A DNA stretch of 64,000 bases, taken from IMG/VR virus record IMGVR_UViG_3300026254_000003, one strand, 5' to 3'. Within the stretch, counting starts at the first letter, position 1; every line of letters starts with the position of its first letter. The notes under the pieces are model-generated. The model searched no databases, was not told the origin of the DNA, and worked only from the letters and a program-made list of their open reading frames with translations. The translations under genes and the position numbers were made by a program. Below, piece by piece: positions 5,807-22,943 of the stretch. This stretch comes from an uncultured virus (IMG/VR IMGVR_UViG_3300026254_000003) (Duplodnaviria; Heunggongvirae; Uroviricota; Caudoviricetes).

Positions 5807-5860
5807 AAAAAAGCCCGCGCATGGCGGGCTTGGGTGAGTGTGTCAGCACATCACCAAGGT
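5807..5860 (-). terminator. Hairpin (TGTGCTGACA) + intrinsic terminator module, copy 1
   Basis: Minus strand ggtga tgtgctgacacac tcacc, then agcccgc-catgc-gcgggc-TTTTTT. Confidence 0.8.
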
Positions 5861-5874
5861 GAAACTAAAGCGTG

Positions 5875-6438
5875 TTAGATACGCGTCATGTCAAAATCAG
5901 GGTAGCCTGCGCAACTCGTCAGCAAATCATCAAGTGTCATCCAGAATTTAGCGGGGTCGTTTTGTAGCATATCATCAAGCGCGCTTTCAACATCATACTT
6001 CTTGACCATCTCCATCAACGTATCGATGTAGGTGTAAACAAAAAGGTTAATGAGCGTACGTGCGCCATAGATGCTTAACTTATTAAGCGGCACGTGGCCT
6101 TCACGGTTATTGACAACCTCAATGGTCAGGTTGTCTGCACTGCGAGCAAGGGGCGAAAGTGCGTCGTACACCTCATCAGTAACGTTCATTTTCATACTGT
6201 TGATGCGAGAGGTAAGTTCATTGCCGTAGCTTTCAACTAATGCTGGGGCGTTATCAAGTCGCTTTTTCGTCATTATAGCGATCTGTTCAAGCGCTTGAGA
6301 CACCGTATCAAACGTTGAGAAATCATATGTACTTAAAGGTACGCAGATGGCAACTGAAATAGCTTCAGATACATTGCTGCAATAACCAATTTCAAAAACA
6401 TTAGGCTGGCTGTTGTGCTGTGTTGTAGTGCTGTTCAT
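5875..6438 (-). CDS. hypothetical protein, paralog family A
   Basis: Shares F..FD...AL..I / LSPLA..AD.LT / YGARTL.NLFV.TYID motifs with 13206 and 19924 ORFs. Confidence 0.8.
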   Translation of the reverse strand: MNSTTTQHNSQPNVFEIGYCSNVSEAISVAICVPLSTYDFSTFDTVSQALEQIAIMTKKRLDNAPALVESYGNELTSRINSMKMNVTDEVYDALSPLARSADNLTIEVVNNREGHVPLNKLSIYGARTLINLFVYTYIDTLMEMVKKYDVESALDDMLQNDPAKFWMTLDDLLTSCAGYPDFDMTRI

Positions 6439-6513
6439 AATGCATTCTCGTTGTTGTGTTGACGAAAATAATCCTCTCACAGATATGAGAGGGTTGTCAA
6501 TAGTGTGCCGTAA

Positions 6514-7107
6514 TTACGACACACTGTCGTCCTCGTCCACGACCTCGCCATTTTCATCAACGCGCTCGGGCTTGGTGTAGACGGTGCCACCATCATCATC
6601 AAGGTCAAGTTCATCATCATCATAGCTTGCTGACCAGAATGAAATAGATCCATCATCAAGGCGGTTGCCCACAGCATCTGCTCTGTAGTGTGGCACATCT
6701 GTCGCGCCGTCTATCAAGTAGCGAGCCGCATCAAAGATATTGTCGAATGTATAATCAACTAAACCTTGATAATTGTAATAAACCGTACCGTCTTCATAGT
6801 GCGAGCCTGTGCGATCTGCACGAAAGACAAAATCAGAACCTGCGGGGTTATCTCGCACGAAATCTTGTGCGCGCTTACTCATAGGTTTATTGACGCTGTT
6901 AATGGTCGTTGCGTTATTTGGGTTCACCGCCAGTGCGAGCATGTCGAATTTTTCTGCCATATCACGAAGGTTTTGTGCGGCGCGGCGGCATGCATTGTCA
7001 GCCCCTGACTCTCGCGGGAAAGAAAATTCACTATCACCGTTGATAAGCTCCGCTTCAAAATGATGTGAATTGTAGATAGAAGAAAGACCGATTTTGATGT
7101 TTTTCAT
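6514..7107 (-). CDS. hypothetical protein, very acidic C-terminus
   Basis: 197-aa ORF. Confidence 0.75.
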   Translation of the reverse strand: MKNIKIGLSSIYNSHHFEAELINGDSEFSFPRESGADNACRRAAQNLRDMAEKFDMLALAVNPNNATTINSVNKPMSKRAQDFVRDNPAGSDFVFRADRTGSHYEDGTVYYNYQGLVDYTFDNIFDAARYLIDGATDVPHYRADAVGNRLDDGSISFWSASYDDDELDLDDDGGTVYTKPERVDENGEVVDEDDSVS

Positions 7108-7142
7108 GCTGTTTCCCTAGTGACGAAAAGTGTTGTTGTGGT

Positions 7143-7451
7143 TTATTTACCGCGTGAAATAGGCGAGCGGTCGTGATACGGGGCGGCTTGTGTGTAATGC
7201 CAAACACCGTTTATTTTGATCCCCTCAAGCTCTCCACGAAGCCACAGTGACTTTAGCGCGTGGCCGTAAGTTTTGTTTGCTTTTCTGGCGCGCTTAGGGT
7301 AGCCAGTGGCCAGTTTTGTTGCCATGCAGGTGGCTTTTACCCAACCATGCTCACGAATATAACGAAGCAGTGATTTTCGACGCTTTGAGATGGGGAACGT
7401 CTTGTCTGCGGCATCGTGATCAAACATTGTTTTATTCGATAGTGTGTTCAT
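7143..7451 (-). CDS. small basic protein, possible winged-helix
   Basis: 102 aa, behind repeat 7464; L..L..RGEL...K..G.W.Y pattern. Confidence 0.7.
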   Translation of the reverse strand: MNTLSNKTMFDHDAADKTFPISKRRKSLLRYIREHGWVKATCMATKLATGYPKRARKANKTYGHALKSLWLRGELEGIKINGVWHYTQAAPYHDRSPISRGK

Positions 7452-7558
7452 GGTGGTAACCCGTGTTGTGCTGACAGGAACAGTATCTCAAAATCTGTGT
7501 TTTTTGTCAATGGGTTTTGCGTAAAAAAGCCCGTAAAATGCGGGCTTTAATGTTGGTG

Positions 7559-8071
7559 TTAGCTGCCGTAACGGTATTCGAAGGTATAAGGGCCTTCTTG
7601 TACTTCAAGATACATGTAATCTTCATAGATGCCATGCGTATCGCCAGCCATGTGGTAATCAATGCTAACACCTAGCGCCTCCATGGCCTTCAGGTGCGCA
7701 AGCGCTTTGTCAAACTTATCCTGAGCAAGTTTCGCATGCTTATCATAATCACGCTTTGCATCACTCTTATTCAAGAATTGGCCTGACGCAGGTGAATCAC
7801 TTAGGCATTTGCCTTGATGAACATCGAAATCTTTGCCGTTGTAGCGGTAAAGCGTTGACGGGAAGACGAATTCGCGGTCGCCCACTGTGAAGCACTTGGT
7901 GGTTTCGCGCCACGGGCAAATCATGAAGGGTTTATCTGATGGGACGCGCGACTGAGCAACATCTCTGGCTTTCTCAAGTGTGTCGGTGTCGATTTCGATT
8001 TCACCCAATTCAGGGCGTAGATTCATCGGAGAAAGGTTAAGGGGTAAGGCTTTGATAGCAAATAGTGCCAT
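7559..8071 (-). CDS. hypothetical protein
   Basis: Start corrected to MALFAIK after repeat 8086. Confidence 0.8.
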   Translation of the reverse strand: MALFAIKALPLNLSPMNLRPELGEIEIDTDTLEKARDVAQSRVPSDKPFMICPWRETTKCFTVGDREFVFPSTLYRYNGKDFDVHQGKCLSDSPASGQFLNKSDAKRDYDKHAKLAQDKFDKALAHLKAMEALGVSIDYHMAGDTHGIYEDYMYLEVQEGPYTFEYRYGS

Positions 8072-8152
8072 GGTACTGTTCCTGTGTTGTTGTGCTGACA
8101 GGAACAGTATCCCAAAAGCTGAGAGCGTTGTCAATGTTTTTTTGCATTATGT

Positions 8153-8647
8153 TTAATCGACATCTGGCTTTATTACCTTCCGTAAATCGGAGGTGAGGAT
8201 GACAAACAGTGTGTTAAATCCCAACGCAGCGGTTATAAAAACACTATCCCACATGGTGTTTTCGGCAGATGTCAGCATGTCTATCGCGATAATGGCACCA
8301 TAATTAGTAAACAGTGCAATCAATGCTGTGCTGACCAGGTCGAATGCCACCTGCGCATCATGCGACGTACTGTGAGGCTGGTTTCGGGTGACATTTTGAT
8401 ACCTGAATGCAACGGTATGAGCAAGCTTGGCGATTATCAAGCCGATACACATAGCCATAATTAAAAACGACGTCGTTAGCTTAAAAGTGTGAGGCTCAAA
8501 GTCGGGCAATGTGGCATAAGAATGTGCCATCAACGAAATGACCGCAAGAAGCGCGAAAAAACCGACGCCACGCCACATCCATAATAAGGCTTGCCCAATA
8601 GTATTCAGGGTGATGTCTGTTTGTGGATCTTCGTTGGTTATATCCAT
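8153..8647 (-). CDS. hypothetical membrane protein (about 4 TM)
   Basis: 164 aa, hydrophobic helices. Confidence 0.75.
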   Translation of the reverse strand: MDITNEDPQTDITLNTIGQALLWMWRGVGFFALLAVISLMAHSYATLPDFEPHTFKLTTSFLIMAMCIGLIIAKLAHTVAFRYQNVTRNQPHSTSHDAQVAFDLVSTALIALFTNYGAIIAIDMLTSAENTMWDSVFITAALGFNTLFVILTSDLRKVIKPDVD

Positions 8648-8692
8648 GTGATGTGCGCCCTCTGGTTGAAAAAGTATTACATTAGGGGGCGA

Positions 8693-9058
8693 TTAATGCA
8701 TCACCCGCTGGCCCATAAGCGCCTGCTCCATGTCCCAATACAGCCACGCCTCATTGTCGAGGTTGCGCTCTTTGTGTGCAAGCGCTTGTTCTGCGGCTGC
8801 AATCTCAAGGTCCACTTGCTTTTGCTCCTCACGCGAATGCCACACCACTTCGGTGCTGTCACGTTGACCCACTACAACTTTGTCTACACGCGCCAACGCG
8901 TACTCATCGTCGTTGCCCATGATATCATTGGCAAAAAGAAAATCCCAGCATGCCGCTTTCGCTGCATCGAGATCTGGCGTAGGGAGAAGCAACGCTTCGT
9001 TCTCGTACTCGTAGTCCATGCCTGTGATAGCGTATGCAAGAAAAAGAACCTGTTCCAT
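8693..9058 (-). CDS. acidic hypothetical protein
   Basis: 121 aa behind repeat 9075. Confidence 0.8.
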   Translation of the reverse strand: MEQVLFLAYAITGMDYEYENEALLLPTPDLDAAKAACWDFLFANDIMGNDDEYALARVDKVVVGQRDSTEVVWHSREEQKQVDLEIAAAEQALAHKERNLDNEAWLYWDMEQALMGQRVMH

Positions 9059-9167
9059 TGTGATATACCTTTAATGTTGTGCTGACAAGATAAGTATCTC
9101 AAACTCTGAGAGTGTTGTCAATAGAAAATGCGGCTGACCCATAATTAACCAGCCGCGCACCTCATAT

Positions 9168-9509
9168 TTAGGCTGCGAAAGCTGTCCTAAGGCCGTCGGG
9201 TATGTCGAAGCCTAAAATCCCAAAACGCTTCCCTTTCGAATCGGTAATCAGCCTTGTGTAAAGCCCCTCCATTAGTGCAAGTCCTGCATCCGTCGGCGTG
9301 GAAGTGAAGTAACCCTTGTCCATCAGTCTCTTGACGTGATGTCTGTCTCCAAAAGGACTCATATGACAGCCAAGGCAGTCTGGTTTTGGAATGGCCCAAA
9401 GACGTCCATCAGGTTGCGCATAGAGGTCCCAATTGGCGTCACCGATAAAGGCCAGAGTTTTACCTTTGATGGCGTTGTCGCGTTGCTGTTGCGTATCGAT
9501 TGCAGGCAT
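9168..9509 (-). CDS. hypothetical protein
   Basis: Start corrected to MPAIDTQ, AGGAG RBS, repeat 9524. Confidence 0.8.
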   Translation of the reverse strand: MPAIDTQQQRDNAIKGKTLAFIGDANWDLYAQPDGRLWAIPKPDCLGCHMSPFGDRHHVKRLMDKGYFTSTPTDAGLALMEGLYTRLITDSKGKRFGILGFDIPDGLRTAFAA

Positions 9510-9709
9510 GGTGATGCTCCTAAGTTGTGCTGACAGGGTTAGTATCTCAAAAGCTGAGAGTGTTGTCAATACAAAAAGTGATTGGTGTTTGTTTTATATG
9601 CAAAAAAAGGCGAGTTGGCAATCGTCTTCTTTGCAACGTATCACCACATATCTATATTCGCTTTTGCGATTTTGTAATGCGTGAAGAAACGGCTCTTATG
9701 AGCCTTTTC

Positions 9710-9865
9710 TTATTTAGCCTTGTCTACATAAGAAGCATTGCCTGTCGCGTAGGTGTACGCGTCAGCTTCAGCCCTGGCATCCTCAAGCGATGCGGGTGAT
9801 TTCATTAATGGCGTGTCGTTGTGGTTATACGCCATCCAAACTTTATTTTCGTTAGATTGTGCCAT
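9710..9865 (-). CDS. small hypothetical protein (51 aa, not in ORF track)
   Basis: MAQSNENKVWMAYNHNDTPLMKSPASLEDARAEADAYTYATGNASYVDKAK; AAGGAG RBS behind repeat 9881. Confidence 0.75.
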   Translation of the reverse strand: MAQSNENKVWMAYNHNDTPLMKSPASLEDARAEADAYTYATGNASYVDKAK

Positions 9866-9952
9866 GAGGCTTTCTCCTTGGTTGTGTTGACAGTGTTAGT
9901 ATCCCAAAGTCTGAGTGCGTTGTCAACACAGCCAAGAAAATTCATGCAGATA

Positions 9953-10729
9953 TTAACGCGTCGATGTTAATGTATAAGGTACTTGCGCCTCTTTAAGCAT
10001 GCTGTCTAGCACTTTGGTGTGGTCGAGATAAAGCTCCTCGTCTTCAGGCGAGGTGCCAGCATTAAGGTGGTGACGCTCAGCAACGGCATCCCATGCCACA
10101 TCTTCATTAGGCGCTTCAGCCAGCGCAGAACGCGGTTCTTCCCCTTCAGGGTGATAAACAACTAAAAATAACATCGCTTTTTCCTCGTAGTTAGGTGAAT
10201 AAGGAGAGATAAATTGTCGGTACTCATGCACATGCAGCAACGGTTGGTACGTTATCAGCCATTGCTGCCATTGCGCCCATGTGGCTTGCGAAAATGCCAT
10301 CGATAAATGCGAGTCTGCATAGTGTACGGTTGTGGTGCTGGTGCGCGTATCAATCACAACGTACCATACAAATGTCTCGGCTAACTCGACAGGCGCAAAA
10401 ACGCTGTCTGCGGCATTGGTTATTTCAAACGACAAGGCGCTATCGTCACGATTAAGGCCAATGCCCACAAAATCAGTAAGCGAGGTGTCTTGATAGCGTC
10501 CACCTGCTCTTGTAGTAAATTCTGGCTCGCTCTGGCCGCAGAGGTGCTCATTCTCAAGCGTCAGGATATCAAGGCTGTCTCTGATGTCGCCATCATCAAA
10601 ACTGATGTAAGTGCGGTTTTCCCATTGTTGTTGGGCTTTCGGCAGATGGCATAACTCGTCGAATATCGTGGTGGTGCCTGTCGGTTTAGGCGTGACATTT
10701 GAGAGAGGGGGCTTAGTGGTTTTTCCCAT
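9953..10729 (-). CDS. hypothetical protein
   Basis: 258 aa behind variant repeat 10741. Confidence 0.8.
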   Translation of the reverse strand: MGKTTKPPLSNVTPKPTGTTTIFDELCHLPKAQQQWENRTYISFDDGDIRDSLDILTLENEHLCGQSEPEFTTRAGGRYQDTSLTDFVGIGLNRDDSALSFEITNAADSVFAPVELAETFVWYVVIDTRTSTTTVHYADSHLSMAFSQATWAQWQQWLITYQPLLHVHEYRQFISPYSPNYEEKAMLFLVVYHPEGEEPRSALAEAPNEDVAWDAVAERHHLNAGTSPEDEELYLDHTKVLDSMLKEAQVPYTLTSTR

Positions 10730-10822
10730 GGAGTATACCTTGTTGTGTTGACCTGTTTATTGTCTCTTATAATCAGGGTTAAGTCAATGTTAAAATTGAA
10801 AATAACCAATGTTAAGAAAGAG

Positions 10823-10870
10823 AAAAGCCCGCGCGTGGCGGGCAGGGTGTGTATGTCAGCACAGCACCAA
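10823..10870 (-). terminator. Hairpin + terminator module, copy 2
   Basis: aaaagcccgcgcgtggcgggc...tgtcagcacagcacc, homologous to 5807-5860. Confidence 0.75.
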
Positions 10871-10877
10871 AAAGAGG

Positions 10878-11501
10878 TTATTTTGAGCGAGAGAAGTGCT
10901 TCGGCATGAGGATCGTACCATCTTCAAATTTTGCCTTGCAGATAGCGCCTGCCTGCTCGCACAATTCAACGTCAAACATTGACCAGTGGCATTGCTCAGC
11001 GCGAATGTTCATTTCTTGAGACAACCATAGATAGCCAATATTAAGACCGCACTGCTGACGCTTCATAAGGCGCATAAACCAGCTTTTATTGGCTTTGCGT
11101 GCCTCGCGAGTGGCCGCATCAGCCAGCGTGCCAAGCGGTATATCAGTGTGAGGATGAACACCTACGTAGGCACCGCATTCTTGATTTCGGCATAGGTAAA
11201 GGTAAGGCCACTCTCCATAGCTACGCTTATAAACGGTTTTATGCTCCACTAACTCGACATGCTCATGACCGCAGTAAGGGCATGTTTCAGGCACGGGAAC
11301 GCGGTGCTTTACACGCTTCAGTGAGCGACGGCTAATGTGCGGTAGTGGCGCAGGTGCAATAAGCTTCGCTTCGCTGGTGGCGCGAGGATCTATGCCCGAA
11401 ATGATAGTCACACCTGTATCAACAGGTTGATTGGAGTCAATGTTTTCTTGTGGTGACGTTTTACCGTTAACAAGTTGCGCAAGCGCTTGAAATAGTGCCA
11501 T
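10878..11501 (-). CDS. DUF3268-like zinc-finger protein
   Basis: CPYCG...YLYLC..CGAYVGVHPHT..PLGTLAD motif typical of this phage-associated family. Confidence 0.75.
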   Translation of the reverse strand: MALFQALAQLVNGKTSPQENIDSNQPVDTGVTIISGIDPRATSEAKLIAPAPLPHISRRSLKRVKHRVPVPETCPYCGHEHVELVEHKTVYKRSYGEWPYLYLCRNQECGAYVGVHPHTDIPLGTLADAATREARKANKSWFMRLMKRQQCGLNIGYLWLSQEMNIRAEQCHWSMFDVELCEQAGAICKAKFEDGTILMPKHFSRSK

Positions 11502-11618
11502 GATGGTTACCCTGATGTGTTGTGCTGACAGGATCAGTATCGCAAAATCTGTGATAGTTGTCAATGGTTTTGGCAACAGTCGCTCACAATAATCATGTTT
11601 ACGACTGCCGCTTGGCGA

Positions 11619-12320
11619 TTACTGTACCAATGGTGGTGCCGTGTGAGTAGACTGCGAACCGCGTATCGCTGCAACCTCTGAAAATGCGATGTAGTGGGTA
11701 GCAAGATGAAAAAAAGCGTCTTCCATCACCTTGGCGGTACGTTCTCGCAGGGCTTTACATTCTGGTGGCGCATTGGGGTCGAGTAGCCCAATCGTGGACA
11801 TGCCGTTGCTATAATTCACACACATATCGTGAAACATAAATACCACCCACATAAGCTTTACGTCATCAGGTGTCGCTTGTGCAGGGCAAGGCGTACCTGT
11901 TACGTAGGTGAGGTGGTCTGCTGTAATACCTTTGTTGGCAATATCGATGGCTTTTCTAAGTTTACCTAAGTCATCAAGTAACGCCTCGGCCCGCTTGATG
12001 TCCGCTTCACTGACAGGTGATCGGGGTTGCGTATTGAGGTTTTCTAAATTAAGACGCTCCGCACACACCAACATGAGAAAGAGGCCGTCAATGCGTTGTG
12101 CTGAACGTTTCGCATCACTAAATACATCAACAACAGAGGTCGAAGAAAAGGCGTTAGCCGCGTGATCAAGCACGCGTGTTAATGCAGGGTAAGTTAATGC
12201 AATGCGTGCAGCAGGATTAACAAAATCGCTGGCACGCTCACGCAACAAATCAGCGTGGTTCGAGTGGTATTTTGCTGGGCGAAAAGCCGCATGGAATGCA
12301 AGTTGATGATAGGTGGTCAT
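11619..12320 (-). CDS. hypothetical protein
   Basis: Start corrected to MTTYHQL after repeat 12335. Confidence 0.75.
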   Translation of the reverse strand: MTTYHQLAFHAAFRPAKYHSNHADLLRERASDFVNPAARIALTYPALTRVLDHAANAFSSTSVVDVFSDAKRSAQRIDGLFLMLVCAERLNLENLNTQPRSPVSEADIKRAEALLDDLGKLRKAIDIANKGITADHLTYVTGTPCPAQATPDDVKLMWVVFMFHDMCVNYSNGMSTIGLLDPNAPPECKALRERTAKVMEDAFFHLATHYIAFSEVAAIRGSQSTHTAPPLVQ

Positions 12321-12422
12321 AATGCGTTGCCTGTGTTGTTGTGCTGACAGGGTAAGTATCGCAAAATCTGTGTTATTTGTCAATAGGTTGTTTAGGTTGT
12401 CTGTAAGAAAAACGTACGATGA

Positions 12423-15470: not shown

Positions 15471-15809
15471 TTATGCGACACGTTTCATGTTGGGGTTTCT
15501 TGCGGTAGTGCGTACCCAAAAGTCTTGTTTAATCGACTTTGTACCTGCTGCCCCGCGCTTGAAATACTCAATGTAATCAGGGTGAGAGTAAACCTTGACT
15601 TGATTGAATGCCAATCCTTTATCGGCAATGGCTTTAGCAAGATGCTCATCAGGGATGGTGCGGTCTTTTAGGCTAAGTTTAAACTGACGCACCGTTTGAT
15701 TTTTGGTGTTGCACTCAAAAAGATAAAGCGTATCACCGATAAAACCAATGTAGATGGCGACAATGTCTGACTTGGGCGTAAGAACGCGTTTAGCGTAGGT
15801 GGTATTCAT
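15471..15809 (-). CDS. hypothetical protein
   Basis: 112 aa behind repeat 15822. Confidence 0.75.
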   Translation of the reverse strand: MNTTYAKRVLTPKSDIVAIYIGFIGDTLYLFECNTKNQTVRQFKLSLKDRTIPDEHLAKAIADKGLAFNQVKVYSHPDYIEYFKRGAAGTKSIKQDFWVRTTARNPNMKRVA

Positions 15810-15920
15810 GCGAGTAACCTCTGTTGTGCTGACAGGGTTAGTATCTCAAAATCTGTGTTAATTGTCAATAAAAAAACAACCAAGGTTGCAAACAACCTTG
15901 GTTTTATGGGTAATAAAAAT

Positions 15921-16568
15921 CTAATTAGATGCCTGGCTGGCCAGCGCTTTAATAATGTCGTGTTGACTATCGGAAAGTGCCATCATTAAGGCACGTTCAG
16001 CAGCGGTTAGGCTGGCTAAACTGAAATCATCATTGTCGACCATGATATCAATGACCGTACTGTCGAGCACCCATAAGCGCTGGAGCATCGTCTTTGAACA
16101 TGCTTGATATGCATAGGTCATTATTGCATTGGGATTAATGTCTGCCCAGATATAGCGCGCTAACGGTGAGGCCGTGGCGATAGCTTGCTCAATTTTTTCA
16201 TTTTCTGCGGTGTCGTTCATATCGTCAATTGCAGCCACCTCCGCCTTGCTGATACCGTCAAGCCCTGCGTCAGAAAGCCAACCTAGAAGAGTATCAGACC
16301 ATGTGTCACTGTCTGGACTCCCAATGATGTTATCGATCTCAAGTAGTGCCGAGAGAGAAGGCTTATGGCCGTGAGTCGCTTGTTTTGAGATAAGGGGTAG
16401 CCAGTAGCGGCCTAATTGCCATGCCTTATTAGTATCTGGCGTAAGACGAGATGGCGTTTTTTGTGCCAGTGCAGTGGTGCGTTTAATGAGTGCAAGCTGT
16501 TGCTGAGGGGTCAGTAACGTTTGCTCTTCATCAATGCGAAGTGAAGCTAAAAGGGTTGTAGAGTTCAT
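15921..16568 (-). CDS. hypothetical protein, paralog family B
   Basis: G.KPSL.A...I.N.I / WS...L..L..AGL / SPL.RY.W.D.NP shared with the 34686 ORF. Confidence 0.8.
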   Translation of the reverse strand: MNSTTLLASLRIDEEQTLLTPQQQLALIKRTTALAQKTPSRLTPDTNKAWQLGRYWLPLISKQATHGHKPSLSALLEIDNIIGSPDSDTWSDTLLGWLSDAGLDGISKAEVAAIDDMNDTAENEKIEQAIATASPLARYIWADINPNAIMTYAYQACSKTMLQRLWVLDSTVIDIMVDNDDFSLASLTAAERALMMALSDSQHDIIKALASQASN

Positions 16569-16631
16569 AATGACGCCTTGGTGTTGAGTTGAGGTGAAGC
16601 GAAACGGCTTCACCTAAAAATATAAACCGTG

Positions 16632-17150
16632 TTACTTGAGGGCTTTGGGTGTAATGCTAACACGCCAGCCGACCGCGCCAAGAGCCGCAGACAGGTGTTC
16701 TTCCTTATATTCTGCGAGAGCCTCGTTGACAATATCCTCGTCAAGTGGGCAATTGACATCGCCAACCACATCCATTTTGGCATAAAATACCGCGTCAATG
16801 ATGGTGGTATCACGTTCAGTGATCTGCGCGTCCTTTGGGAGGCATTGTCGTTGTACACATATATCAATGTATTCGGGTTCGTTAAGGTCGTTGATGTAAA
16901 AGGCCGAGAACGTTACATCGAAAATAGCACGACCATCAGGGATAGCGTCAGGTGATGTATTGCCCCCAGTATCACCAAGGATAGCGCCAAGTAGCGAGAG
17001 AGCATCGTAGCCTTTTAAGTTAACGTTAGGCGAAAGCATGCTATCGGAAGAAAACATTTTGCTCTGGCATACGGTTGCTTTGATGCTTTGCCCAGCAATT
17101 TGCGCGCTATTTGGCGTAATTAACTCAAGTGGGACAAACAATGTTTTCAT
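16632..17150 (-). CDS. hypothetical protein
   Basis: 172 aa, GGAGAG RBS, repeat 17167. Confidence 0.8.
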   Translation of the reverse strand: MKTLFVPLELITPNSAQIAGQSIKATVCQSKMFSSDSMLSPNVNLKGYDALSLLGAILGDTGGNTSPDAIPDGRAIFDVTFSAFYINDLNEPEYIDICVQRQCLPKDAQITERDTTIIDAVFYAKMDVVGDVNCPLDEDIVNEALAEYKEEHLSAALGAVGWRVSITPKALK

Positions 17151-17226
17151 AGTGCTCTCCGAGACCGTTGTGTTGACAGGGTTAGTATCTCAAAAGCTGA
17201 GAGTGTTGTCAATAAAAAAGAGACAT

Positions 17227-17529
17227 TTATGGATGTTCTTTCTCACTATTGAAGACGGAACTAGCACGCTCCAGCGCTTCCATGAAATCGATGTTAAGAT
17301 GTTCGCATGTGTGCTGGAGATCAGATAGCAAGTCGCGTACTCCCTGCTCGACAGGTTCGCCTCCACTGCTTCCGTAAATGTGTTTTGCGTAGCCATGAAG
17401 GGCGCGCCATCCCTGCTTCGCGCGTGCCCCATTGGGGTTAGCGTGATTAACGCTATCAGGTAGCGCATTCATGACGGGTTCAGCGCAATCAAATGTTGCA
17501 TTTTCGATGGCTTCTGTAGGAGTACTCAT
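17227..17529 (-). CDS. hypothetical protein
   Basis: 100-aa ORF. Confidence 0.7.
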   Translation of the reverse strand: MSTPTEAIENATFDCAEPVMNALPDSVNHANPNGARAKQGWRALHGYAKHIYGSSGGEPVEQGVRDLLSDLQHTCEHLNIDFMEALERASSVFNSEKEHP

Positions 17530-17580
17530 TGTTTTTTGCCTATAGTGTTGCGTTAGTAAAATGAAGAGCAGTGAATGCGG

Positions 17581-17979
17581 CTATGCCGCATCACTTAACT
17601 TTACCACAACCGCTTCGTGAGGAGCGTCAGGGTTCGTGACAACAAGCCCTGCGTCTTGCATCGTGTCGACGATGATCTTGCGAGAGCTAGGAACCGTGCT
17701 ATTCCAAAAGATAGACGTTTGATTTGGTAGCGTCGTCCACCCACGCTTAATGATGCCACAAAACGCATAAAGGTTACCGCTATCTAGCGCCCCTTTGCCC
17801 AGTTTTTCCTCAGCAAGTTCAGAGCGCACCTGGCCAGAGTCGTGGTGATCTTTGGTAAGACGTGCTGCCGCGAAACCTTTGTCTTTTTTAAGCGAGCGAA
17901 AGGCTGCATCCAACTTTTTAAGGTGGAGGTTTAGTACTTGGCGACGGGCTTTAAGTGCTTGTTCACGCATGAAGCTCAT
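17581..17979 (-). CDS. hypothetical protein
   Basis: 132 aa behind repeat 17995. Confidence 0.8.
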   Translation of the reverse strand: MSFMREQALKARRQVLNLHLKKLDAAFRSLKKDKGFAAARLTKDHHDSGQVRSELAEEKLGKGALDSGNLYAFCGIIKRGWTTLPNQTSIFWNSTVPSSRKIIVDTMQDAGLVVTNPDAPHEAVVVKLSDAA

Positions 17980-18090
17980 GATGTTTTCCTGTGTTGTTGT
18001 GCTGACAGGATTAGTATCCCAAAACCTGTGTATGTTGTCAACAGTTTTTTGTGTTTTTTTGCAGCCGATAAGAGGTGTGGCAACTGCGGC

Positions 18091-18588
18091 CTACGTCTCT
18101 ATATAAGGTAATACAAGGAACTCGTCAGGATCGGCAATGGTGTGAGCATAGTCTCCTATCAGCATGCGATTTATTCCGAAGATGCGATGTGGTTCACCCA
18201 CCTTGCAGAACGTATTAAGCTTGCTGTTGATGCACGTGAGAACCTCACCTTGTTTTATCGCTAAGGTTAGGGGGGCGCTGTTGACGCACTTGATGTAACC
18301 TTTGGTGTCCACCTTGGCCTTCAGTGTATCACCGTGCTCAACAGGACGATGCTTAACAAAGCACGTCTTAACCGTGTCTGCTGACAGCGTGACATGGCGA
18401 ATACCAAGAGGTGTCTGTTCTGAATACTGGTAAGTGACGATATTACCTTGGTCGTTCTGCTCTTTCGGGTAAACACAGAAGAAGCGCGCGCATTTAACCG
18501 GTGTTTGCGAATTGTCTATCGTAAGGTCACGACCTTTGTGATCATGACCGTGAGCAATCTTGGTTTGTTCGATGTAGCATGGATCCAT
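18091..18588 (-). CDS. hypothetical protein
   Basis: Start MDPCYIE after leader-only copy at 18602. Confidence 0.75.
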   Translation of the reverse strand: MDPCYIEQTKIAHGHDHKGRDLTIDNSQTPVKCARFFCVYPKEQNDQGNIVTYQYSEQTPLGIRHVTLSADTVKTCFVKHRPVEHGDTLKAKVDTKGYIKCVNSAPLTLAIKQGEVLTCINSKLNTFCKVGEPHRIFGINRMLIGDYAHTIADPDEFLVLPYIET

Positions 18589-18644
18589 AGAGAATAACCT
18601 GTGTTGTGTTGACATTGTCATTGTAACACAGGTTGCCTACCATG

Positions 18645-19898
18645 TTAAGCGCTCGCTTTATGCTTGCGATGGAACTGCAAGACGTTGGATTTTTTCTTAG
18701 CATACTCTACATCACGCCTTAGCGCATCAATATCACGTTCCGTGCTGGCAATGATGCTCAGTGACATTCGAGTCACCGCAGCATTTAAAAGCAATGGCAA
18801 GAACGTGATCAATGCAAGCTGGAACGCAACCTCGGCCGTTGCCGACGAAAATAGCGTCGAAGGGGCTAGAGCAAGTGCCATCATGACAACAGGAATAAGG
18901 GGAGAGGTGACCGAAAATGCCCGTGAACGTATCAAGTCACTTGCTCGTGGTCCCGTATGGTCATAAGCATCTTGTTCATTGGTCGTAGTGAAGTCAAGCG
19001 TTGGGTTGACAGACAAGCTAAGTCCAATGTGACGCCCGACGTAAAGTCCGAACAACCCCATCATTAGTGAGAGTGGGTATGAAGCTGCTTGCGAGTCAGT
19101 TAGCGTGACTAATCCATGATGAGCAATGTACATAAAAATGACCGTGGCCACTGTGATAAGACAAGTCATTAAACCGTTTTGAAGGTAAATAGCGTCCCGG
19201 GCCTGACTGTGGCTTTTAATCACACCTTTACCGGCCTCAATAACAGCTGATTGCTCTTCTTTTGAGGTGAGAAGGCTGCCAAATTTGTTATGGCTGCTGG
19301 AAAGATAAAATCCAAAACGCTTAAGCACTGCGGTCTGCTTGCCGCTATCTGATGTTTCAAATTCACTGAGTGCGACATCCATCGCGCTCTTTTTATTTCT
19401 CGCCTCATGCGCAGGTTTAGCGCTATTGAATAAGAAAAGCGTCGCGCTATAGACCGTCACAATAAGGCATGTGCCTAGCAGCATGGAGGATGCGAACGTG
19501 CCCGTAGTGAGGGTGGAGTACGCTTCGTAAAAAATTACGCTCAATCCAAAAGGCAGCCCATAAGGGATAATTTTACTGGTTTGTTCGGGCAGGCGCAGGG
19601 CAAGTTTAAGGATGCCATTGTGATCACCTCGACGGATAGCGTCACGTCGCTCAAAGAACGCGTGCACAGCGATGTAGAAAAGAGGCGCTATGGCACCTAT
19701 GAAAGCGAGAAACATTAATGTTGTCGCTTTTATATCTGAGAGCGCAACCAATAGAAGCAGCGCGCCTAGCAGTGTGATGAGGCTGTTTCTTATGCCAACA
19801 TATAATGCGCGGGAAAGTGCGTGCATGGTCTGGTCGCAGTGTTTGTGTCGTTCAAGCAAAAGCAGCGCCTTTCCTTCATTTATCGATTTAATTCTCAT
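18645..19898 (-). CDS. multi-pass membrane protein (about 8 TM)
   Basis: Long ORF with two blocks of hydrophobic helices; start MRIKS with AAGGA RBS. Confidence 0.8.
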   Translation of the reverse strand: MRIKSINEGKALLLLERHKHCDQTMHALSRALYVGIRNSLITLLGALLLLVALSDIKATTLMFLAFIGAIAPLFYIAVHAFFERRDAIRRGDHNGILKLALRLPEQTSKIIPYGLPFGLSVIFYEAYSTLTTGTFASSMLLGTCLIVTVYSATLFLFNSAKPAHEARNKKSAMDVALSEFETSDSGKQTAVLKRFGFYLSSSHNKFGSLLTSKEEQSAVIEAGKGVIKSHSQARDAIYLQNGLMTCLITVATVIFMYIAHHGLVTLTDSQAASYPLSLMMGLFGLYVGRHIGLSLSVNPTLDFTTTNEQDAYDHTGPRASDLIRSRAFSVTSPLIPVVMMALALAPSTLFSSATAEVAFQLALITFLPLLLNAAVTRMSLSIIASTERDIDALRRDVEYAKKKSNVLQFHRKHKASA

Positions 19899-19923
19899 CA
19901 CATTATCCTTGTTGTCTATGCTT

Positions 19924-20475
19924 TTAAGCCGCGAGTGACAAATCGTAGGCAGTGCGTCCAAGACTTGCCATTAAGATGGCAGAAAGTGTCAAAGGAAAAC
20001 GACGCGGCTCGTTCTTAAGCACGTTACTAACATGCCCGTCTGTGTCGAAGCGCTTCACTTCATCGATGATCGTGTCAATGTAAGTGGCAACAAATAAATT
20101 GACCAGTGTTCTGGCCCCGTAAGACGGCAAGCAACACAAAAAGATACCTTTCCCTTCCGTCGCTTTTAGCGTCAAAGCGTCAGCCTTGGGTGCCAGAGGG
20201 GAGAGCGAACGATACACCTCGTAAATGGCGACAGGTGTGTCTTCATTGAGTTTGGCCACCAGTTCACTGCCACAGTATGTGGTTAACGCGGTTTGATCAG
20301 GGAGGCGCTCAGTAGTGATTTTTTTCACTTCGTCGAGCGCATCATGAGCATTATCGAATCGTGAAAAATTGAGCATTTTTAAGGGGACAGTGATTGCCGC
20401 AGCAACGATTTCTGCGGTGAATGTGTTCATGCCTATTTGAAAGTGCGTTGGTGTTTCAGGTGTTGCTGTACTCAT
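19924..20475 (-). CDS. hypothetical protein, paralog family A
   Basis: Motif similarity to 5875 and 13206 ORFs; degenerate repeat upstream. Confidence 0.8.
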   Translation of the reverse strand: MSTATPETPTHFQIGMNTFTAEIVAAAITVPLKMLNFSRFDNAHDALDEVKKITTERLPDQTALTTYCGSELVAKLNEDTPVAIYEVYRSLSPLAPKADALTLKATEGKGIFLCCLPSYGARTLVNLFVATYIDTIIDEVKRFDTDGHVSNVLKNEPRRFPLTLSAILMASLGRTAYDLSLAA

Positions 20476-20556
20476 GCGAGCATCCCTTGTTATTGTCTGT
20501 ATAAAACTGTAACGTGAATCTGTGAAGGTTGTCAATGGTGGCGCGACTCAACAGCC

Positions 20557-20613
20557 AAAAGAAAGCCCGCCAGTGGCGGGCTGGTGGTGAGCGTGTCAGC
20601 ACATCACCAAGGT
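20557..20613 (-). terminator. Hairpin + terminator module, copy 3
   Basis: aaagcccgccagtggcgggct ggtggtgagcgtgtcagcacatcaccaaggt. Confidence 0.8.
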
Positions 20614-20838
20614 TTAAAAGTAGTACTGCCTCGCACGTGATGTGCGTATGACACGCCCCTGAGGGGTCGTCAATGTCACCGTGGCTGTGTCGCGAAGGAA
20701 TGCCGCAGTAACGTGATCCATTGTTGCTTCATCGGCAAGAGAGGCGCTCGCCACGACCTGGCGTTGAAGCGTGCAGCCCGATGACGCGGTTATCGCGCAA
20801 AGTAGCAAAATGCACAGTGCAATAAGAGTCGGTTTCAT
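20614..20838 (-). CDS. small putative lipoprotein
   Basis: MKPTLIALCILLLCAITASSGC signal with lipobox-like ending. Confidence 0.6.
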   Translation of the reverse strand: MKPTLIALCILLLCAITASSGCTLQRQVVASASLADEATMDHVTAAFLRDTATVTLTTPQGRVIRTSRARQYYF

Positions 20839-20890
20839 GTTGCCTCACTGGTAGCTCCCACGGCCGCTATTGCAGCCGTGGTTAATAACG

Positions 20891-21154
20891 TTAATCTGAA
20901 TATTCTGACGGGTCAAATTCCCCGACAACTTCAGGATCACCATCGTTGCGTACGATGATAAGGTGAAGGCCTGAGTAGCGAACTTGTTTGAATACATCCA
21001 TGATGTTCTCAGTTTCTACGCTGTCCCACATGTCTGGTGTACCGCCATTATCGACATATGCCAAGTGTTCTTCCAAGGTGCCTTCTGTGCCGTCCTCGTC
21101 AATAGGGTAGCTGGGCTTAACCGGGAAAAGCAGGTAAGACTGAGTGGTTTGCAT
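20891..21154 (-). CDS. small acidic hypothetical protein
   Basis: 87 aa behind repeat 21168. Confidence 0.8.
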   Translation of the reverse strand: MQTTQSYLLFPVKPSYPIDEDGTEGTLEEHLAYVDNGGTPDMWDSVETENIMDVFKQVRYSGLHLIIVRNDGDPEVVGEFDPSEYSD

Positions 21155-21263
21155 TGGTGTATCCTCGTGTTATGTTGACAGGATTAGTATCTCAAAGCCT
21201 GTGAGTTATGTCAACACTTTTTCTTGTTTTGTTCACAAGGCAACAAAGCACATCAATGCGGTA

Positions 21264-21488
21264 TCAGTCGTCAATGTATTTGAGTTTGTCTACATACCTT
21301 AACCAGAGGAAACAAAGGCACATCAAGTTGATGGCTCCGGCGCCTATGATGGCATAGAATGCACTGGGCTCCACCGCGCTCCTGTCAACGCCGATGACTG
21401 CGCATATAAGCAGTAACAGCAGGCTGAATGCGCCGAAGATGAGTGCAATCACGCACCAGTGATACTCCTTGGCAACAGAAAATCCCAC
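21264..21488 (-). CDS. small membrane protein (2 TM)
   Basis: Overlaps stop of upstream ORF; hydrophobic. Confidence 0.6.
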   Translation of the reverse strand: MGFSVAKEYHWCVIALIFGAFSLLLLLICAVIGVDRSAVEPSAFYAIIGAGAINLMCLCFLWLRYVDKLKYIDD

Positions 21489-21772
21489 TATGCTTCAACC
21501 TCATCAAACAGAGCCATGTTGAAAAAGGTCTTTTCAAGGTGATAGTTAGACATCCCCGTAACCAAATCAATATCTGAGATGCGTACAGTGTGCGACTTTG
21601 GATCGGCAATAGCCACTTTAACATGAATGTTAGAGGTGTTCATGACTATCGAGTGCGGCCGCAGAGAGCCATCCTCCAACATCATGGCCTTGCCATCACG
21701 CCCCATATTTTTGCGAACAAGTGCTCTATGGGCCAACAAGTCGATGGTGCGCGCTTCCTGTGAGCGAGCCAT
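21488..21772 (-). CDS. hypothetical protein
   Basis: 94 aa, start/stop coupled in operon. Confidence 0.7.
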   Translation of the reverse strand: MARSQEARTIDLLAHRALVRKNMGRDGKAMMLEDGSLRPHSIVMNTSNIHVKVAIADPKSHTVRISDIDLVTGMSNYHLEKTFFNMALFDEVEA

Positions 21773-22065
21773 TAGAGGGGGGCTCCATTTTTGATAGCAG
21801 GAAATAGCGTGCTGTTGAGAAAATTGTCAAAGTCAGCTTGCCCTTGCTGTGTGAGCGAACCTTGGTCACACTCGAACGAAAAACACTGATTATTGAACTC
21901 AACATCAACAGATTCACCTACAATATCACCAGTAGGCTCTTGAGCGTCTATTTCGTTACTGGTAATAAAAACAATGTCACGTTGTGTCGTGCATAACGCT
22001 GCATAATTAAGTAGCATAAAGTCATTGTTTTCAAATTCTGTTGTGTGGATGCCAAAAAGTTGCAT
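21772..22065 (-). CDS. hypothetical protein
   Basis: MQLFGIH start with GGAG RBS. Confidence 0.7.
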   Translation of the reverse strand: MQLFGIHTTEFENNDFMLLNYAALCTTQRDIVFITSNEIDAQEPTGDIVGESVDVEFNNQCFSFECDQGSLTQQGQADFDNFLNSTLFPAIKNGAPL

Positions 22066-22134
22066 AATGATGCTCCAGTGCGGTTGTGCCCACGCGTCAA
22101 GCAATGGGCGCAATGTGAATGAGTGAAAGGTATG

Positions 22135-22563
22135 CTATGCGCTTGCGTGGTGACGATTTTGCTTTTTTAGCGCGGCAATTTCTTCTTTCATTAGTGTCGA
22201 CAAACGGTTGCGTAGTGGTGTTGGAAGATACGCGTCATTGTCTTTGTCAGCTACCTCTCTAATCCAAGCGTCAAGCCCTTTCTGCCAGATTGCGGTAATC
22301 TCCTTTTTGGCCTCATCAGAGGGCTCTCCGCCAAGATTGAAGTTTCTTACCCGCAGGATACTCGGGTTCAGCCAATCATGGTCAGATTCATCGCTGAGAA
22401 TGACTAATTGGTAAATCAGATTCTCATACTGCATGAGAATGCTGCTACCGCTTGGCGAAAAAAACATAAGTTTGCCGTTATTGGCATCATCTTCAGTGAT
22501 GCCGGTGGCGCGAAATGCGGCGCTGGTGATGCACGCAATGCATCGAGAAGTGGTCTCTATCAT
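22135..22563 (-). CDS. hypothetical protein
   Basis: 142 aa, ATGA overlap with upstream ORF. Confidence 0.75.
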   Translation of the reverse strand: MIETTSRCIACITSAAFRATGITEDDANNGKLMFFSPSGSSILMQYENLIYQLVILSDESDHDWLNPSILRVRNFNLGGEPSDEAKKEITAIWQKGLDAWIREVADKDNDAYLPTPLRNRLSTLMKEEIAALKKQNRHHASA

Positions 22564-22787
22564 GATTTTTCCTTGTTGTGTTTTTGTTTCGCCAATTCAA
22601 GGGCGTAAAGAAAATCATCGGCAAGGCTTTCGCCTCCGCTGTCAAAATCGTGTTCATTGCCATCCGGATCGATGATGGACATGCCTGAGCCGTGTAGTTC
22701 AATATCAAGTCGCACTCGCCATCCCTCTGGGAGCTCCCCTGCGCAGGTGTTGATGGCATCACTGATGCTGCATGGATGAGTGGGCAT
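22560..22787 (-). CDS. small hypothetical protein
   Basis: 75 aa, first gene behind repeat 22822. Confidence 0.75.
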   Translation of the reverse strand: MPTHPCSISDAINTCAGELPEGWRVRLDIELHGSGMSIIDPDGNEHDFDSGGESLADDFLYALELAKQKHNKEKS

Positions 22788-22890
22788 AAATGTTAACCTT
22801 ATTTGTTATCGCTGGGGCGATGTGTGTTGACAAGGTTAGTATCTCAAAAACTGCGAGTGTTGTCAAGATTTTGATGTAATGAGAGATAAG

Positions 22891-22943
22891 AAAAAGCCCG
22901 CGCATGGCGGGCTGGGGTGAGTGTGTCAGCACATCACCAAGGT
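22891..22943 (-). terminator. Hairpin + terminator module, copy 4
   Basis: Nearly identical to 5807-5860. Confidence 0.8.

What the first reader, a model, noticed from the sequence alone, without database searches (positions are those of the whole stretch)
5807..22943. Four hairpin+terminator modules carry the anti-leader, and their variant co-localises with the matching leader variant
Seen in sequence: near-identical modules lie at 5807-5860, 10823-10870, 20557-20613 and 22891-22943. The minus strand reads GGTGA-TGTGCTGACACAC-TCACC followed by a GCCCGC terminator. UGUGCUGAC is complementary to the GUCAGCACA leader variant. That variant dominates at 4.7-18 kb (4701, 7464, 8086, 9075, 9524, 11518, 12335, 13115, 13775, 15401, 15822, 17995) and is rare elsewhere (31707, 59295). 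The 43-kb hairpins instead match the GUCAACACA variant that dominates the rest of the window. Inference: matched leader/anti-leader pairs, either 3'-derived small RNAs or 5'-3' end pairing, define two sub-regulons.
Basis: partly seen in the sequence, partly recalled or inferred. Interest (0 to 1): 0.8.

Follow-up and report, generated by a model that had tools for sequence, protein, structure and literature searches.

The report
Terminator hairpins that mirror phage mRNA leaders
Four copies of a hairpin-plus-terminator unit in an uncultured marine, phage-like genome carry a sequence complementary to the invariant first bases of a subset of its roughly fifty near-identical early transcripts; this could be an RNA control circuit, but it may equally be a by-product of how these recombining promoter and terminator cassettes are built.

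Summary
The sequence observation holds. Four homologous ~55-nt units (hairpin plus GCCCGC intrinsic terminator) lie at the stated places on the minus strand. Their hairpins contain UGUGCUGAC, the complement of the G variant of a 12-nt leader. That leader sits 6-7 nt after the -10 box of 52 near-identical sigma-70 promoters, so it is the predicted 5' end of the mRNAs. G leaders cluster at 4.7-18 kb.

- For: complementarity is 12 of 13 nt and beats shuffles. Pairing is feasible and discriminates G from A leaders (-14.0 vs -7.3 kcal/mol). A second element at 43.1 kb displays a perfect 13-nt anti-leader in an open loop.
- Against: 5 of 9 anti-leader bases are stem-paired. Two of four modules follow only A-type leaders. 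The 43-kb U variant pairs with both classes through G.U. Co-localisation is not significant once clustering is preserved. The hairpin also resembles a promoter -35 half in the same sense. The only relative (95% identical) shows no informative change.

The closest known kind is the PeSL promoter/terminator cassettes of T4-type phages. My odds: structural 3'-end cassette with incidental complementarity 0.45; functional anti-leader RNA 0.33.

The parts
5807..5860 (-). Module M1: hairpin 5833-5855 (anti-leader UGUGCUGAC at 5842-5850), terminator stem-loop 5811-5831, T-run to about 5805. A non-canonical promoter follows at 5793-5766.
10823..10870 (-). Module M2, the diverged copy: hairpin 10846-10868 (anti-leader 10855-10863), terminator 10827-10843.
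20557..20613 (-). Module M3: hairpin 20586-20608 (anti-leader 20595-20603), terminator 20564-20582. The promoter that follows (20535-20506) has no canonical leader.
22891..22943 (-). Module M4: hairpin 22916-22938 (anti-leader 22925-22933), terminator 22895-22913. A canonical promoter (22866-22838) with an A-type leader at 22831 follows.
4701..18006 (-). Cluster of 12 G-variant leaders (GTCAGCACAAC-). Their first bases are at 4712, 7475, 8099, 9086, 9534, 11529, 12348, 13126, 13786, 15412, 15833 and 18006. Four A-variant leaders (6463, 9891, 10752, 17177) are interspersed.
31707..31718 (-). Isolated G-variant leader.
59295..59306 (-). Isolated G-variant leader.
43069..43215 (-). Structured non-coding 3' region after gene 43262-43630. 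Hairpin 1 (43173-43215) holds an 11-of-12 anti-leader at 43192-43203. Hairpin 2 (stem 43154-43162 with 43124-43132) shows a perfect 13-nt A/U-type anti-leader (43141-43153) in a 21-nt loop. A small hairpin lies near 43101-43116. The terminator is 43075-43100 with a T-run at 43069-43074.
9877..9934 (-). Promoter-leader unit enclosed by a long inverted repeat: an anti-leader-like stretch runs into the -35 box and is complementary to the unit's own leader and the start of its ribosome-binding site.
1152..62300 (-). 52 minus-strand promoter-leader units (TTGACA, 17 nt, TG-extended GATACT-like -10, 6-7 nt, then the 12-nt leader), one in front of most small genes. The same leader follows different promoters on the + strand at 37527 and 51000.

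Best explanation
The four modules are portable 3'-end cassettes of a PeSL-like gene-cassette system in a large, uncultured, phage-like marine genome. Each is an RNA hairpin followed directly by an intrinsic terminator, and a promoter for the next unit follows within 20-40 nt. They end the nested sets of early transcripts that start at the many near-identical sigma-70 promoters. The double hairpin probably also protects the 3' ends. The modules spread as blocks by the same recombination that shuffles the ORFan cassettes.

On this reading, the complementarity to the leader arises because the hairpin is built on a degraded promoter half. It has a -35-like YTGACA core followed by CA-rich spacer, closed by a TGTG arm. 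The leader itself contains the complement of the -35 pentamer plus CACA. The local excess of G-type leaders is a variant that spread among neighbouring cassettes by short-tract recombination.

Shown: the module anatomy, the hairpin, the terminators, the block-wise indel, the mosaic divergence and the same-sense likeness to promoters. Inferred: termination and stabilisation in vivo, the origin from a promoter half, and the absence of a pairing function.
For: Hairpin plus terminator fold well beyond shuffles. 59 of 60 pair cells are standard pairs across the four copies. The two variable stem pairs change U-A to U.G and G-C to G.U, which preserves an RNA helix but not a DNA one. Each module is followed at once by a promoter. 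Contigs in runs of two studies join 5860 directly to 6512. A promoter-plus-gene cassette is therefore gained or lost exactly at the module's 5' edge. A further M4-like copy sits in front of another promoter elsewhere.

Divergence from L088 is mosaic, which indicates frequent recombination. 93 of 104 ORFs have no PHROG family, as in the ORFan-rich hyperplastic regions where PeSLs were described (PMC2839356 and PMC4122927, passages read). The hairpin's loop and 3' arm match -35/spacer halves of promoters 54870, 56881, 9891 and 57879 in the same sense (scores 20-22; 7-15 of 200 shuffles reach them).

Other terminators in the window are also preceded by -35-like GACAAC remnants. G and A promoters differ at no other column after correction for multiple tests. 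Co-localisation of modules and G leaders is not significant when clustering is preserved (11 of 52 circular shifts).
Against: The antisense match to the leader is somewhat stronger than the same-sense match to promoters (0-3 against 7-15 of 200 shuffles). It starts exactly at the predicted +1. All 4 substitutions among the hairpin copies fall outside the 9-mer, and all stem changes are on the 3' arm; this is suggestive but not significant, p about 0.13.

An anti-leader of the other variant is displayed in GC-clamped loops at 43.1 kb. A 'relic' model explains that poorly. Anti-leader 12-mers with at most 1 mismatch number 7 on this strand against 0.225 in shuffles. The six that are not a plus-strand leader all lie just upstream of terminators. 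The leader is far more conserved than the promoter (1 of 240 against 42 of 820 changed positions), so something reads it sequence-specifically.
Confidence: 0.45

Rival explanations
1. Functional anti-leader RNA. The module stays in the 3' UTR or is cut out as a ~55-nt 3'-derived small RNA. It pairs through its YUNR-type loop (CUGA) and 5' arm with the accessible 5'-terminal 9-13 nt of G-class early mRNAs, next to the ribosome-binding site. This lowers their translation or changes their stability. The 43-kb element is a general anti-leader that reaches both classes through G.U. G-class genes would thus get an extra, class-specific layer of control that grows with early transcription.
For: Complementarity is 12 of 13 nt and begins at the predicted +1. 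Duplex energy is -14.0 kcal/mol with G leaders against -7.3 with A leaders, and net -8 to -10 kcal/mol after hairpin opening. Leader nt 1-12 are predicted nearly unpaired (median 0.7 kcal/mol). The variable base sits at the first loop position. The diverged copy M2 keeps the 9-mer.

The 43.1-kb element shows a perfect 13-mer in a 21-nt loop, opening cost 3.5 and duplex -16.8 kcal/mol. G leaders in blocks that are 20-24% diverged from L088 stay G. The modules have an A/U-rich single-stranded stretch before the hairpin and a U tail, as 3'-derived sRNAs do (PMC7038943 and PMC5222698, search listings only). That CUGA fits the YUNR U-turn loop of antisense RNAs is recalled, not checked here.
Against: 5 of 9 anti-leader bases are paired in a stable stem and the loop has only 4 nt. 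No covariation is available. M3 and M4 sit in units without G leaders, and three G leaders sit far from any module. The four copies count as one evolutionary event. The 43-kb terminal hairpin may be a distant homologue of the module (13.1 bits), so independent support may be a single event. Given a YTGAC pentamer, the chance of an upstream match is not negligible: 213 sites give 0.29 expected. No expression data on ends or small species are available.
Confidence: 0.33
2. A shared DNA site. The 12 bp at +1 to +12 form the operator of a phage-encoded (or host) DNA-binding protein that switches the roughly 50 early promoters. The inverted copies in the modules and the three direct copies at 43.1 kb are further binding sites, acting as roadblocks or a sink. 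G/A at +5 tunes affinity. With the T at -1, the A-type site is also the exact inverse of the -35 hexamer, and the G variant breaks that.
For: The leader is the most conserved part of the promoter unit, 0 of 180 (9-mer) and 1 of 240 (12-mer) positions changed against 42 of 820 for -35 to discriminator. It keeps a fixed 6-7 nt distance from the -10 box even behind unrelated promoters, including plus-strand ones. T stands at -1 in 40 of 52 units, and the module match includes that untranscribed T. Three anti-leader-like 12-mers lie in direct order within 90 bp at 43.1 kb.
Against: A fixed distance from the -10 box is equally required if the sequence must be the RNA 5' end. The module hairpin varies through G.U-preserving changes, which points to RNA. 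No DNA-binding protein was identified among the window's ORFs, although a DUF3268 zinc-finger protein exists. Nothing ties it to the site.
Confidence: 0.1
3. The hairpin is a recognition or processing signal unrelated to the leader. It could be a binding site for an anti-termination or RNA-stability protein that decides whether the adjacent terminator is read through, or a nuclease entry or stop site.
For: The hairpin sits 1-4 nt before the terminator stem in all four copies, and its sequence is more constant than the spacer and the terminator loop. The genes after M1 and M3 use atypical promoters and leaders, so the modules mark boundaries between differently controlled units. RNA-library contigs run across M3 and M4; this does not show a single transcript.
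Against: No candidate protein was found, and no known RNA family matches (Rfam, 0 hits at gathering score). This model does not explain the anti-leader at 43 kb.
Confidence: 0.1

Closest known systems
PeSLs (promoter-early stem-loops), the mobile regulatory cassettes of T4-type phages (Arbiol et al. 2010, PMC2839356; Comeau et al. 2014, PMC4122927; passages read)
   Same: Near-identical strong sigma-70 promoters repeat in the intergenic spaces of an ORFan-rich region. Stem-loops lie between or around the promoter boxes, here a 5-bp inverted repeat in the spacer. Terminator-promoter junctions are composite. Indels and mosaic divergence occur at the elements.
   Different: Here a 12-nt transcribed leader is the most conserved part of the unit, and it comes in two variants. 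A separate four-copy hairpin-plus-terminator block carries its complement. The passages I read describe no leader or anti-leader relation. Whether this genome is a T4-type phage is unknown, since the window holds no core gene.
5'-3' UTR pairing in icaR mRNA of Staphylococcus aureus (PMC3868564; title and start of abstract seen in search listing)
   Same: A motif in the 3' UTR is complementary to the 5' UTR of the same transcript and controls translation.
   Different: Per that paper's title and abstract, the icaR pairing controls translation of one mRNA; that it covers the ribosome-binding site is my recollection, not read here. In this window the complement covers the first 9-13 nt, next to but not over the ribosome-binding site. 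It would serve nested transcripts of many genes, and the matching variant is absent upstream of two of the four modules.
3' UTR-derived small RNAs of enterobacteria such as NarS and CpxQ, processed by RNase E (PMC7038943, PMC5222698; search listings only)
   Same: They lie at the 3' end of an mRNA, share its intrinsic terminator and U tail, and have an A/U-rich single-stranded stretch upstream that could be a cleavage site.
   Different: Known seeds are single-stranded, whereas here most of the seed is in a stem. No processed species has been shown. The host and its RNA chaperones are unknown.
c4 antisense RNA of phages P1 and P7 (Citron and Schuster 1990, cited in PMC8198154; passages read; details of the matched P1/P7 variants are recalled)
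   Same: A phage antisense RNA is made from the same operon as its target, uses loop-displayed complementary segments, and has sequence variants that set specificity.
   Different: c4 controls one operon for immunity. Here the putative target is the common 5' end of about 50 early mRNAs.

Membership tests
PeSL-type regulatory cassettes | Repeated, near-consensus sigma-70 early promoter in intergenic spaces | tested here: met
   52 minus-strand units; 44 of 52 lie in one fixed register with TTGAC, a 17-nt spacer and a TG-extended GATACT-like -10.
PeSL-type regulatory cassettes | Associated stem-loop acting as terminator or attenuator | tested here: inconclusive
   A short inverted repeat lies in the promoter spacer. 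Separate hairpin-plus-terminator modules sit directly before promoters. Terminator activity was not measured.
PeSL-type regulatory cassettes | Flank ORFans in variable regions; indels and replacements between close relatives occur at the elements | tested here: met
   93 of 104 ORFs have no PHROG family. The joint 5860 to 6512 removes one promoter-plus-gene cassette. Divergence from L088 is mosaic, 0-24%.
PeSL-type regulatory cassettes | Host genome is a T4-type myovirus | not testable with these tools
   The window has no core or structural gene. The rest of the source contig could not be fetched. There is no nucleotide match to 50,697 phage records.
3' UTR-derived trans-acting sRNA | Shares the mRNA's intrinsic terminator and U tail | tested here: met
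   The hairpin begins about 12 nt after the stop codon in M1. The terminator and a run of 4-6 T follow.
3' UTR-derived trans-acting sRNA | Accessible, conserved seed complementary to its targets | tested here: inconclusive
   Complementarity is met, 12 of 13 nt. Accessibility is poor: 5 of 9 nt are paired and opening costs 4-6 kcal/mol. The seed is invariant in 4 copies and in L088, but the local background divergence is near zero for 3 of the 4.
3' UTR-derived trans-acting sRNA | Accumulates as a discrete processed RNA | not testable with these tools
   The runs laid were contigs, which show no ends.
5'-3' UTR pairing within one mRNA (icaR type) | The 3' UTR motif matches the 5' UTR of the transcripts that end there | tested here: not met
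   Met for part of the units ending at M1 (4 of 7 leaders G) and M2 (7 of 9). Not met for M3 (0 of 2) and M4 (0 of 3).
Any Rfam family | Match at gathering score | tested here: not met
   0 matches in the 64-kb window on both strands.

The most novel reading that the evidence does not exclude
A large marine phage controls its whole early gene set after transcription with anti-leader RNAs carried at the 3' ends of its own early transcripts. A general anti-leader at 43.1 kb is loop-displayed, and its U variant pairs with A and G leaders. A class-specific anti-leader, the C variant in at least four or five hairpin-terminator modules, reaches only the G-class leaders. A single base at +5 of the mRNA would thus split about 50 otherwise identical promoter-leader units into two regulons.
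Probability: 0.3. Interest if true: 0.85.

Novelty: new variant of a known kind. Interest (0 to 1): 0.55.

Why it matters
Phage early genes are usually thought to be shut off by proteins; T4 RegA and RegB are examples recalled from the literature. This genome has an invariant 12-nt 5' end shared by about 50 early mRNAs, and complements of it sit in structured 3' ends. That combination would be an RNA-only way to address a whole temporal class at once, and to split it with one base. Even on the structural reading, the locus is a clear example of PeSL-like cassette shuffling outside the cultured T4-type phages. The transcribed leader, not the promoter, is the most constrained part. The element also occurs in RNA libraries of four studies, so raw metatranscriptome reads could test it.

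Tried and rejected
1. Identity of the element.
- Megablast against phages and plasmids gave no match.
- blastn with one promoter unit gave only chance hits.
- tblastn with ORFs found either nothing or scattered, distant phage homologues.
- No whole genome is held for the window, and the loci's records are not held.

2. Relatives for a covariation test.
- The module pattern had 0 hits in viral contigs.
- Promoter-leader patterns gave only single chance hits: 86 stretches in viral contigs, all one per contig, and 2 in genome contigs.
- The metagenome scan gave the window's own contig (L087) and one 95% relative (L088) in which every state is the same.
- Protein-anchored scans of viral contigs found nothing.
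- Three homologues of the 723-aa protein at about 40% identity exist, but their DNA could not be reached.

3. RNA evidence. The four RNA-library runs laid were contigs, so they show no ends, strand or level, and they do not show transcription. Most contig breaks coincide with the repeated promoters. The uncovered stretch between about 10740 and 10844 in two runs of one study is not usable evidence.

4. Cis 5'-3' matched pairing is rejected for M3 and M4.

5. 'Insulation' of read-through transcripts by pairing with the next leader downstream is rejected for the modules. The next leaders are A type (22831, 10752) or non-canonical. It remains possible for the 43-kb element and for the promoter at 9891.

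6. A distinct G-class promoter type is rejected. Only one column of 66 (-26) differs, at p 0.005 uncorrected.

7. The nearest-distance co-localisation test is not significant (p 0.8; 22 of 52 circular shifts).

8. Conservation of the hairpins against L088 (0 of 92 positions changed) is uninformative. Three modules lie in blocks with 0-5 differences per 600 nt, and only M4 has a diverged flank (39 of 600).

9. Rfam gave no hits and no tRNA was found.

10. Literature searches by the leader sequences and by keywords found no description of such a leader/anti-leader system. The library covers open-access papers only.

Full report
**What is there**

- The hairpin has arms GGUGA and UCACC, an inner stem UGUG/CACA with one bulged C, and loop CUGA.
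- After 1-4 nt comes a GCCCGC(C) terminator stem-loop and a T-run.
- The repeat finder reports them as one four-copy family.
- A covariance model built from them finds only these four in the 64-kb window at 74-92 bits. The next hit scores 13.7 bits.
- Each folds much better than shuffles: MFE -19.2 to -27.0 kcal/mol, z -3.5 to -5.2, and 0 of 200 shuffles as good.
- Across the four copies, 59 of 60 pair cells are standard pairs. Two stem pairs vary on one side only (U-A to U.G, G-C to G.U), and none shows a double compensatory change.

**What the 'leader' is**

The motif GTCA[A/G]CACA is not free-standing. It lies 6-7 nt after the -10 box of a highly repeated sigma-70 promoter: TTGACA, a 17-nt spacer, and a TG-extended GATACT-like -10.
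- I count 52 such units on the minus strand, one in front of most of the small genes.
- The same leader follows two different promoters on the plus strand, at 37527 and 51000.
- The leader is therefore the predicted first 12 nt of the mRNAs (GUCA[A/G]CACAACA), about 10-20 nt before the ribosome-binding site. The start site is inferred from spacing, not measured.
- Fourteen units carry G at +5. Twelve of these lie at 4.7-18.0 kb, and the others are at 31718 and 59306.
- The 9-mers are far above chance: 20 against 0.85 expected, and 43 against 0.82 expected.
- The first 12 nt of the predicted transcripts are unusually unstructured. The median opening energy is 0.7 kcal/mol, against 3.7 for control windows in the same RNAs.

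**Context**

Of 104 ORFs, 93 have no PHROG family and 97 have no Pfam family.
- The few hits are a DUF3268 zinc-finger protein, a YfbR-like HD nucleotidase, a NUDIX protein, a GmrSD_C domain, a PcfJ-like protein and a TnpB. The homologues found by tblastn lie scattered in unrelated phages.
- There is no tRNA and no Rfam family.
- The window has no nucleotide match in the phage or plasmid collections.
- Its own contig (L087) is 229,889 bp. A 95% identical relative (L088) lies on a 486,177-bp contig.
- I take the element to be the early, hyperplastic region of a large uncultured phage. This is an inference, because no structural gene is in view.
- The architecture matches the PeSL cassettes of T4-type phages: repeated sigma-70 promoters with stem-loops that flank ORFans and mediate indels (PMC2839356 and PMC4122927, passages read).
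- Two observations fit that recombination picture. First, divergence from L088 is mosaic, 0-5 differences per 500 nt in some blocks and 98-121 in others. Second, contigs in runs of two studies join 5860 directly to 6512. One promoter-plus-gene cassette is therefore present or absent exactly at the 5' edge of module M1. Another contig shows an M4-like module in front of a different promoter.

**Is the anti-leader more than chance?**

- The module matches 11 of 12 leader positions, and 12 of 13 for leaders that continue ACAC.
- Only 0-3 of 200 shuffles of a module reach the antisense score against the 52 promoter units.
- On the gene-sense strand there are 7 sites within one mismatch of the 12-nt anti-leader, against 0.225 in shuffles. 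One is simply a plus-strand gene's leader. The other six are the four modules and two sites at 43.1 kb, all just upstream of terminators.
- The caveat is independence. The four modules are one family, and the terminal hairpin-terminator of the 43-kb region is a weak match to the module model (13.1 bits).
- The anti-leader also ends in YTGAC, which is the -35 pentamer. Given the 213 YTGAC sites on this strand, 0.29 would have the upstream 7-mer within one mismatch by chance.
- My estimate of the chance probability therefore ranges from about 0.004 to about 0.25, depending on how many independent events are granted.

**The 43-kb element**

After gene 43262-43630 comes about 190 nt of structured non-coding RNA that ends in a terminator.
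- Its second hairpin has a 9-bp GC stem closing a 21-nt loop. That loop displays a perfect 13-nt complement of the A-type leader.
- The first hairpin displays an 11-of-12 copy.
- Opening costs 3.5 kcal/mol. The duplex is -16.8 kcal/mol with both A and G leaders, because the U opposite +5 pairs with either base.
- This is the best-looking antisense element in the window. It argues that the complementarity theme is not confined to one repeat family.
- It also means the system is not two symmetric matched pairs.

(a) Locked in a stem? Partly. Five of the nine bases are paired. The 9-mer costs 4-6 kcal/mol to open, yet the net energy with a G leader stays at -8 to -10 kcal/mol. The C variant discriminates G from A leaders, -14.0 against -7.3 kcal/mol. 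The variable base is the first loop base.

(b) 5'-3' pairing within a transcript. I assigned promoters to the next module downstream and ignored weaker terminators in between. On that basis the leaders are 4 G of 7 for M1, 7 of 9 for M2, 0 of 2 for M3 and 0 of 3 for M4. The cis model with matched variants fails for half of the modules.

(c) Co-localisation. G labels are clustered (p 0.0036). 11 of the 21 promoters upstream of modules are G, against 3 of 31 elsewhere. But 11 of 52 circular shifts of the label order do as well, and a nearest-distance statistic is unremarkable. In effect one cluster of G leaders partly overlaps one cluster of modules.

(d) Duplication or conversion. G and A promoters share both spacer sub-types and differ at no other column after correction. 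The G state therefore did not spread by copying whole promoters. Short-tract conversion and selection both remain possible.

(e) Relatives. In L088 every leader and module keeps its state.
- Leaders are strikingly conserved: 0 of 180 positions changed in the 9-mers and 1 of 240 in the 12-mers. This compares with 42 of 820 in the promoter from -35 to the discriminator and 165 of 3513 in all non-coding positions.
- Four G leaders lie in blocks that are 20-24% diverged, and they stay G.
- The hairpins show 0 of 92 changes. However, three modules lie in nearly identical blocks, so this says little.

**An alternative origin for the complementarity**

In the same sense, the hairpin's loop and 3' arm resemble the -35 box plus spacer of several promoters.
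- M1 and M4 share an exact 11-mer with the unit at 54870.
- M2 aligns at 16 of 19 positions with the anti-leader/-35 region of the unit at 9891.
- M3 aligns with the unit at 57879.
- 7-15 of 200 shuffles reach these same-sense scores.
- Several other terminators are also preceded by -35-like remnants.
- A hairpin closed on a YTGACA-CA core needs a TGTG 5' arm. Since the leader contains the complement of TTGAC followed by CACA, such a hairpin is complementary to the leader almost automatically.
- Degraded half-PeSLs are described in the T4-type phages (PMC4122927, figure legend read).

**Verdict**

The anatomy is shown: a portable hairpin-plus-terminator block at the terminator side of PeSL-like junctions, in a genome whose early mRNAs share an invariant, accessible 12-nt 5' end. 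Whether the block pairs with that 5' end is open. My odds are:
- 0.45 that the complementarity has no pairing function.
- 0.33 that it is a working anti-leader, most plausibly acting in trans, with the 43-kb element as the general member.
- 0.10 that the 12-mer is a DNA operator, so that the inverted copies are protein sites.
- 0.10 that the hairpin is a protein or nuclease signal unrelated to the leader.

I found no description of such a leader/anti-leader arrangement in searches by sequence and by keywords (open-access library only). I file it as a new variant of a known kind, PeSL-type cassettes. Its novel reading is moderately probable, would be of high interest, and can be tested directly with raw metatranscriptome reads or simple reporter assays.

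Noticed in passing
window 45130-46356 (+): A TnpB (OrfB_IS605 plus Cas12f1-like TNB domain, 408 aa) sits on the opposite strand in the middle of the ORFan array. No TnpA was seen among the ORFs scanned.
   Followed up: no
window 9877-9934 (-): One promoter unit is enclosed by a ~15-bp inverted repeat. The stretch running into its -35 box is complementary to its own leader and the start of its ribosome-binding site. Transcripts reading through from upstream would therefore hide that site, while transcripts from its own promoter would not.
   Followed up: partly
window 4776-25387 against L088: Divergence is sharply mosaic, with near-identical blocks next to blocks of 20-24% difference. The borders often lie near promoter units, as expected for cassette exchange.
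   Followed up: partly
window 5861-6511: Contigs in RNA-library runs of two studies (X17, X18) lack this promoter-plus-gene cassette. They join module M1 directly to the stop codon of gene 6514-7107, with one extra letter.
   Followed up: partly
window 8134 joined to 22892 in contigs of X15 and X17: A further M4-like module copy lies 37 nt before a promoter like that at 8134. It is either outside the window or in a variant genome, so the module family has at least five members.
   Followed up: no
all 52 promoter-leader units: With the T at -1 (40 of 52 units), the A-type leader start is the exact inverse of the -35 hexamer, so each unit is bracketed by a 6-bp inverted repeat 35 bp apart. The G variant breaks it.
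   Followed up: no
L088 contig length against L087 contig length: The relative's contig (486,177 bp) is about twice the size expected from the window's contig (229,889 bp). It may be a two-unit concatemer of a ~243-kb genome; this was not checked.
   Followed up: no
window 5700-15600: Six RNA-library runs from four studies hold 42-89% of the sampled words of this stretch. Fourteen DNA rows hold 99-100%, but all are flagged as possible sources. The element seems common in marine samples.
   Followed up: no
window 37549-39720 (+): The 723-aa PcfJ-like protein has only three homologues below 90% identity among 5.8 billion clusters, all at about 40% identity and of similar length.
   Followed up: partly
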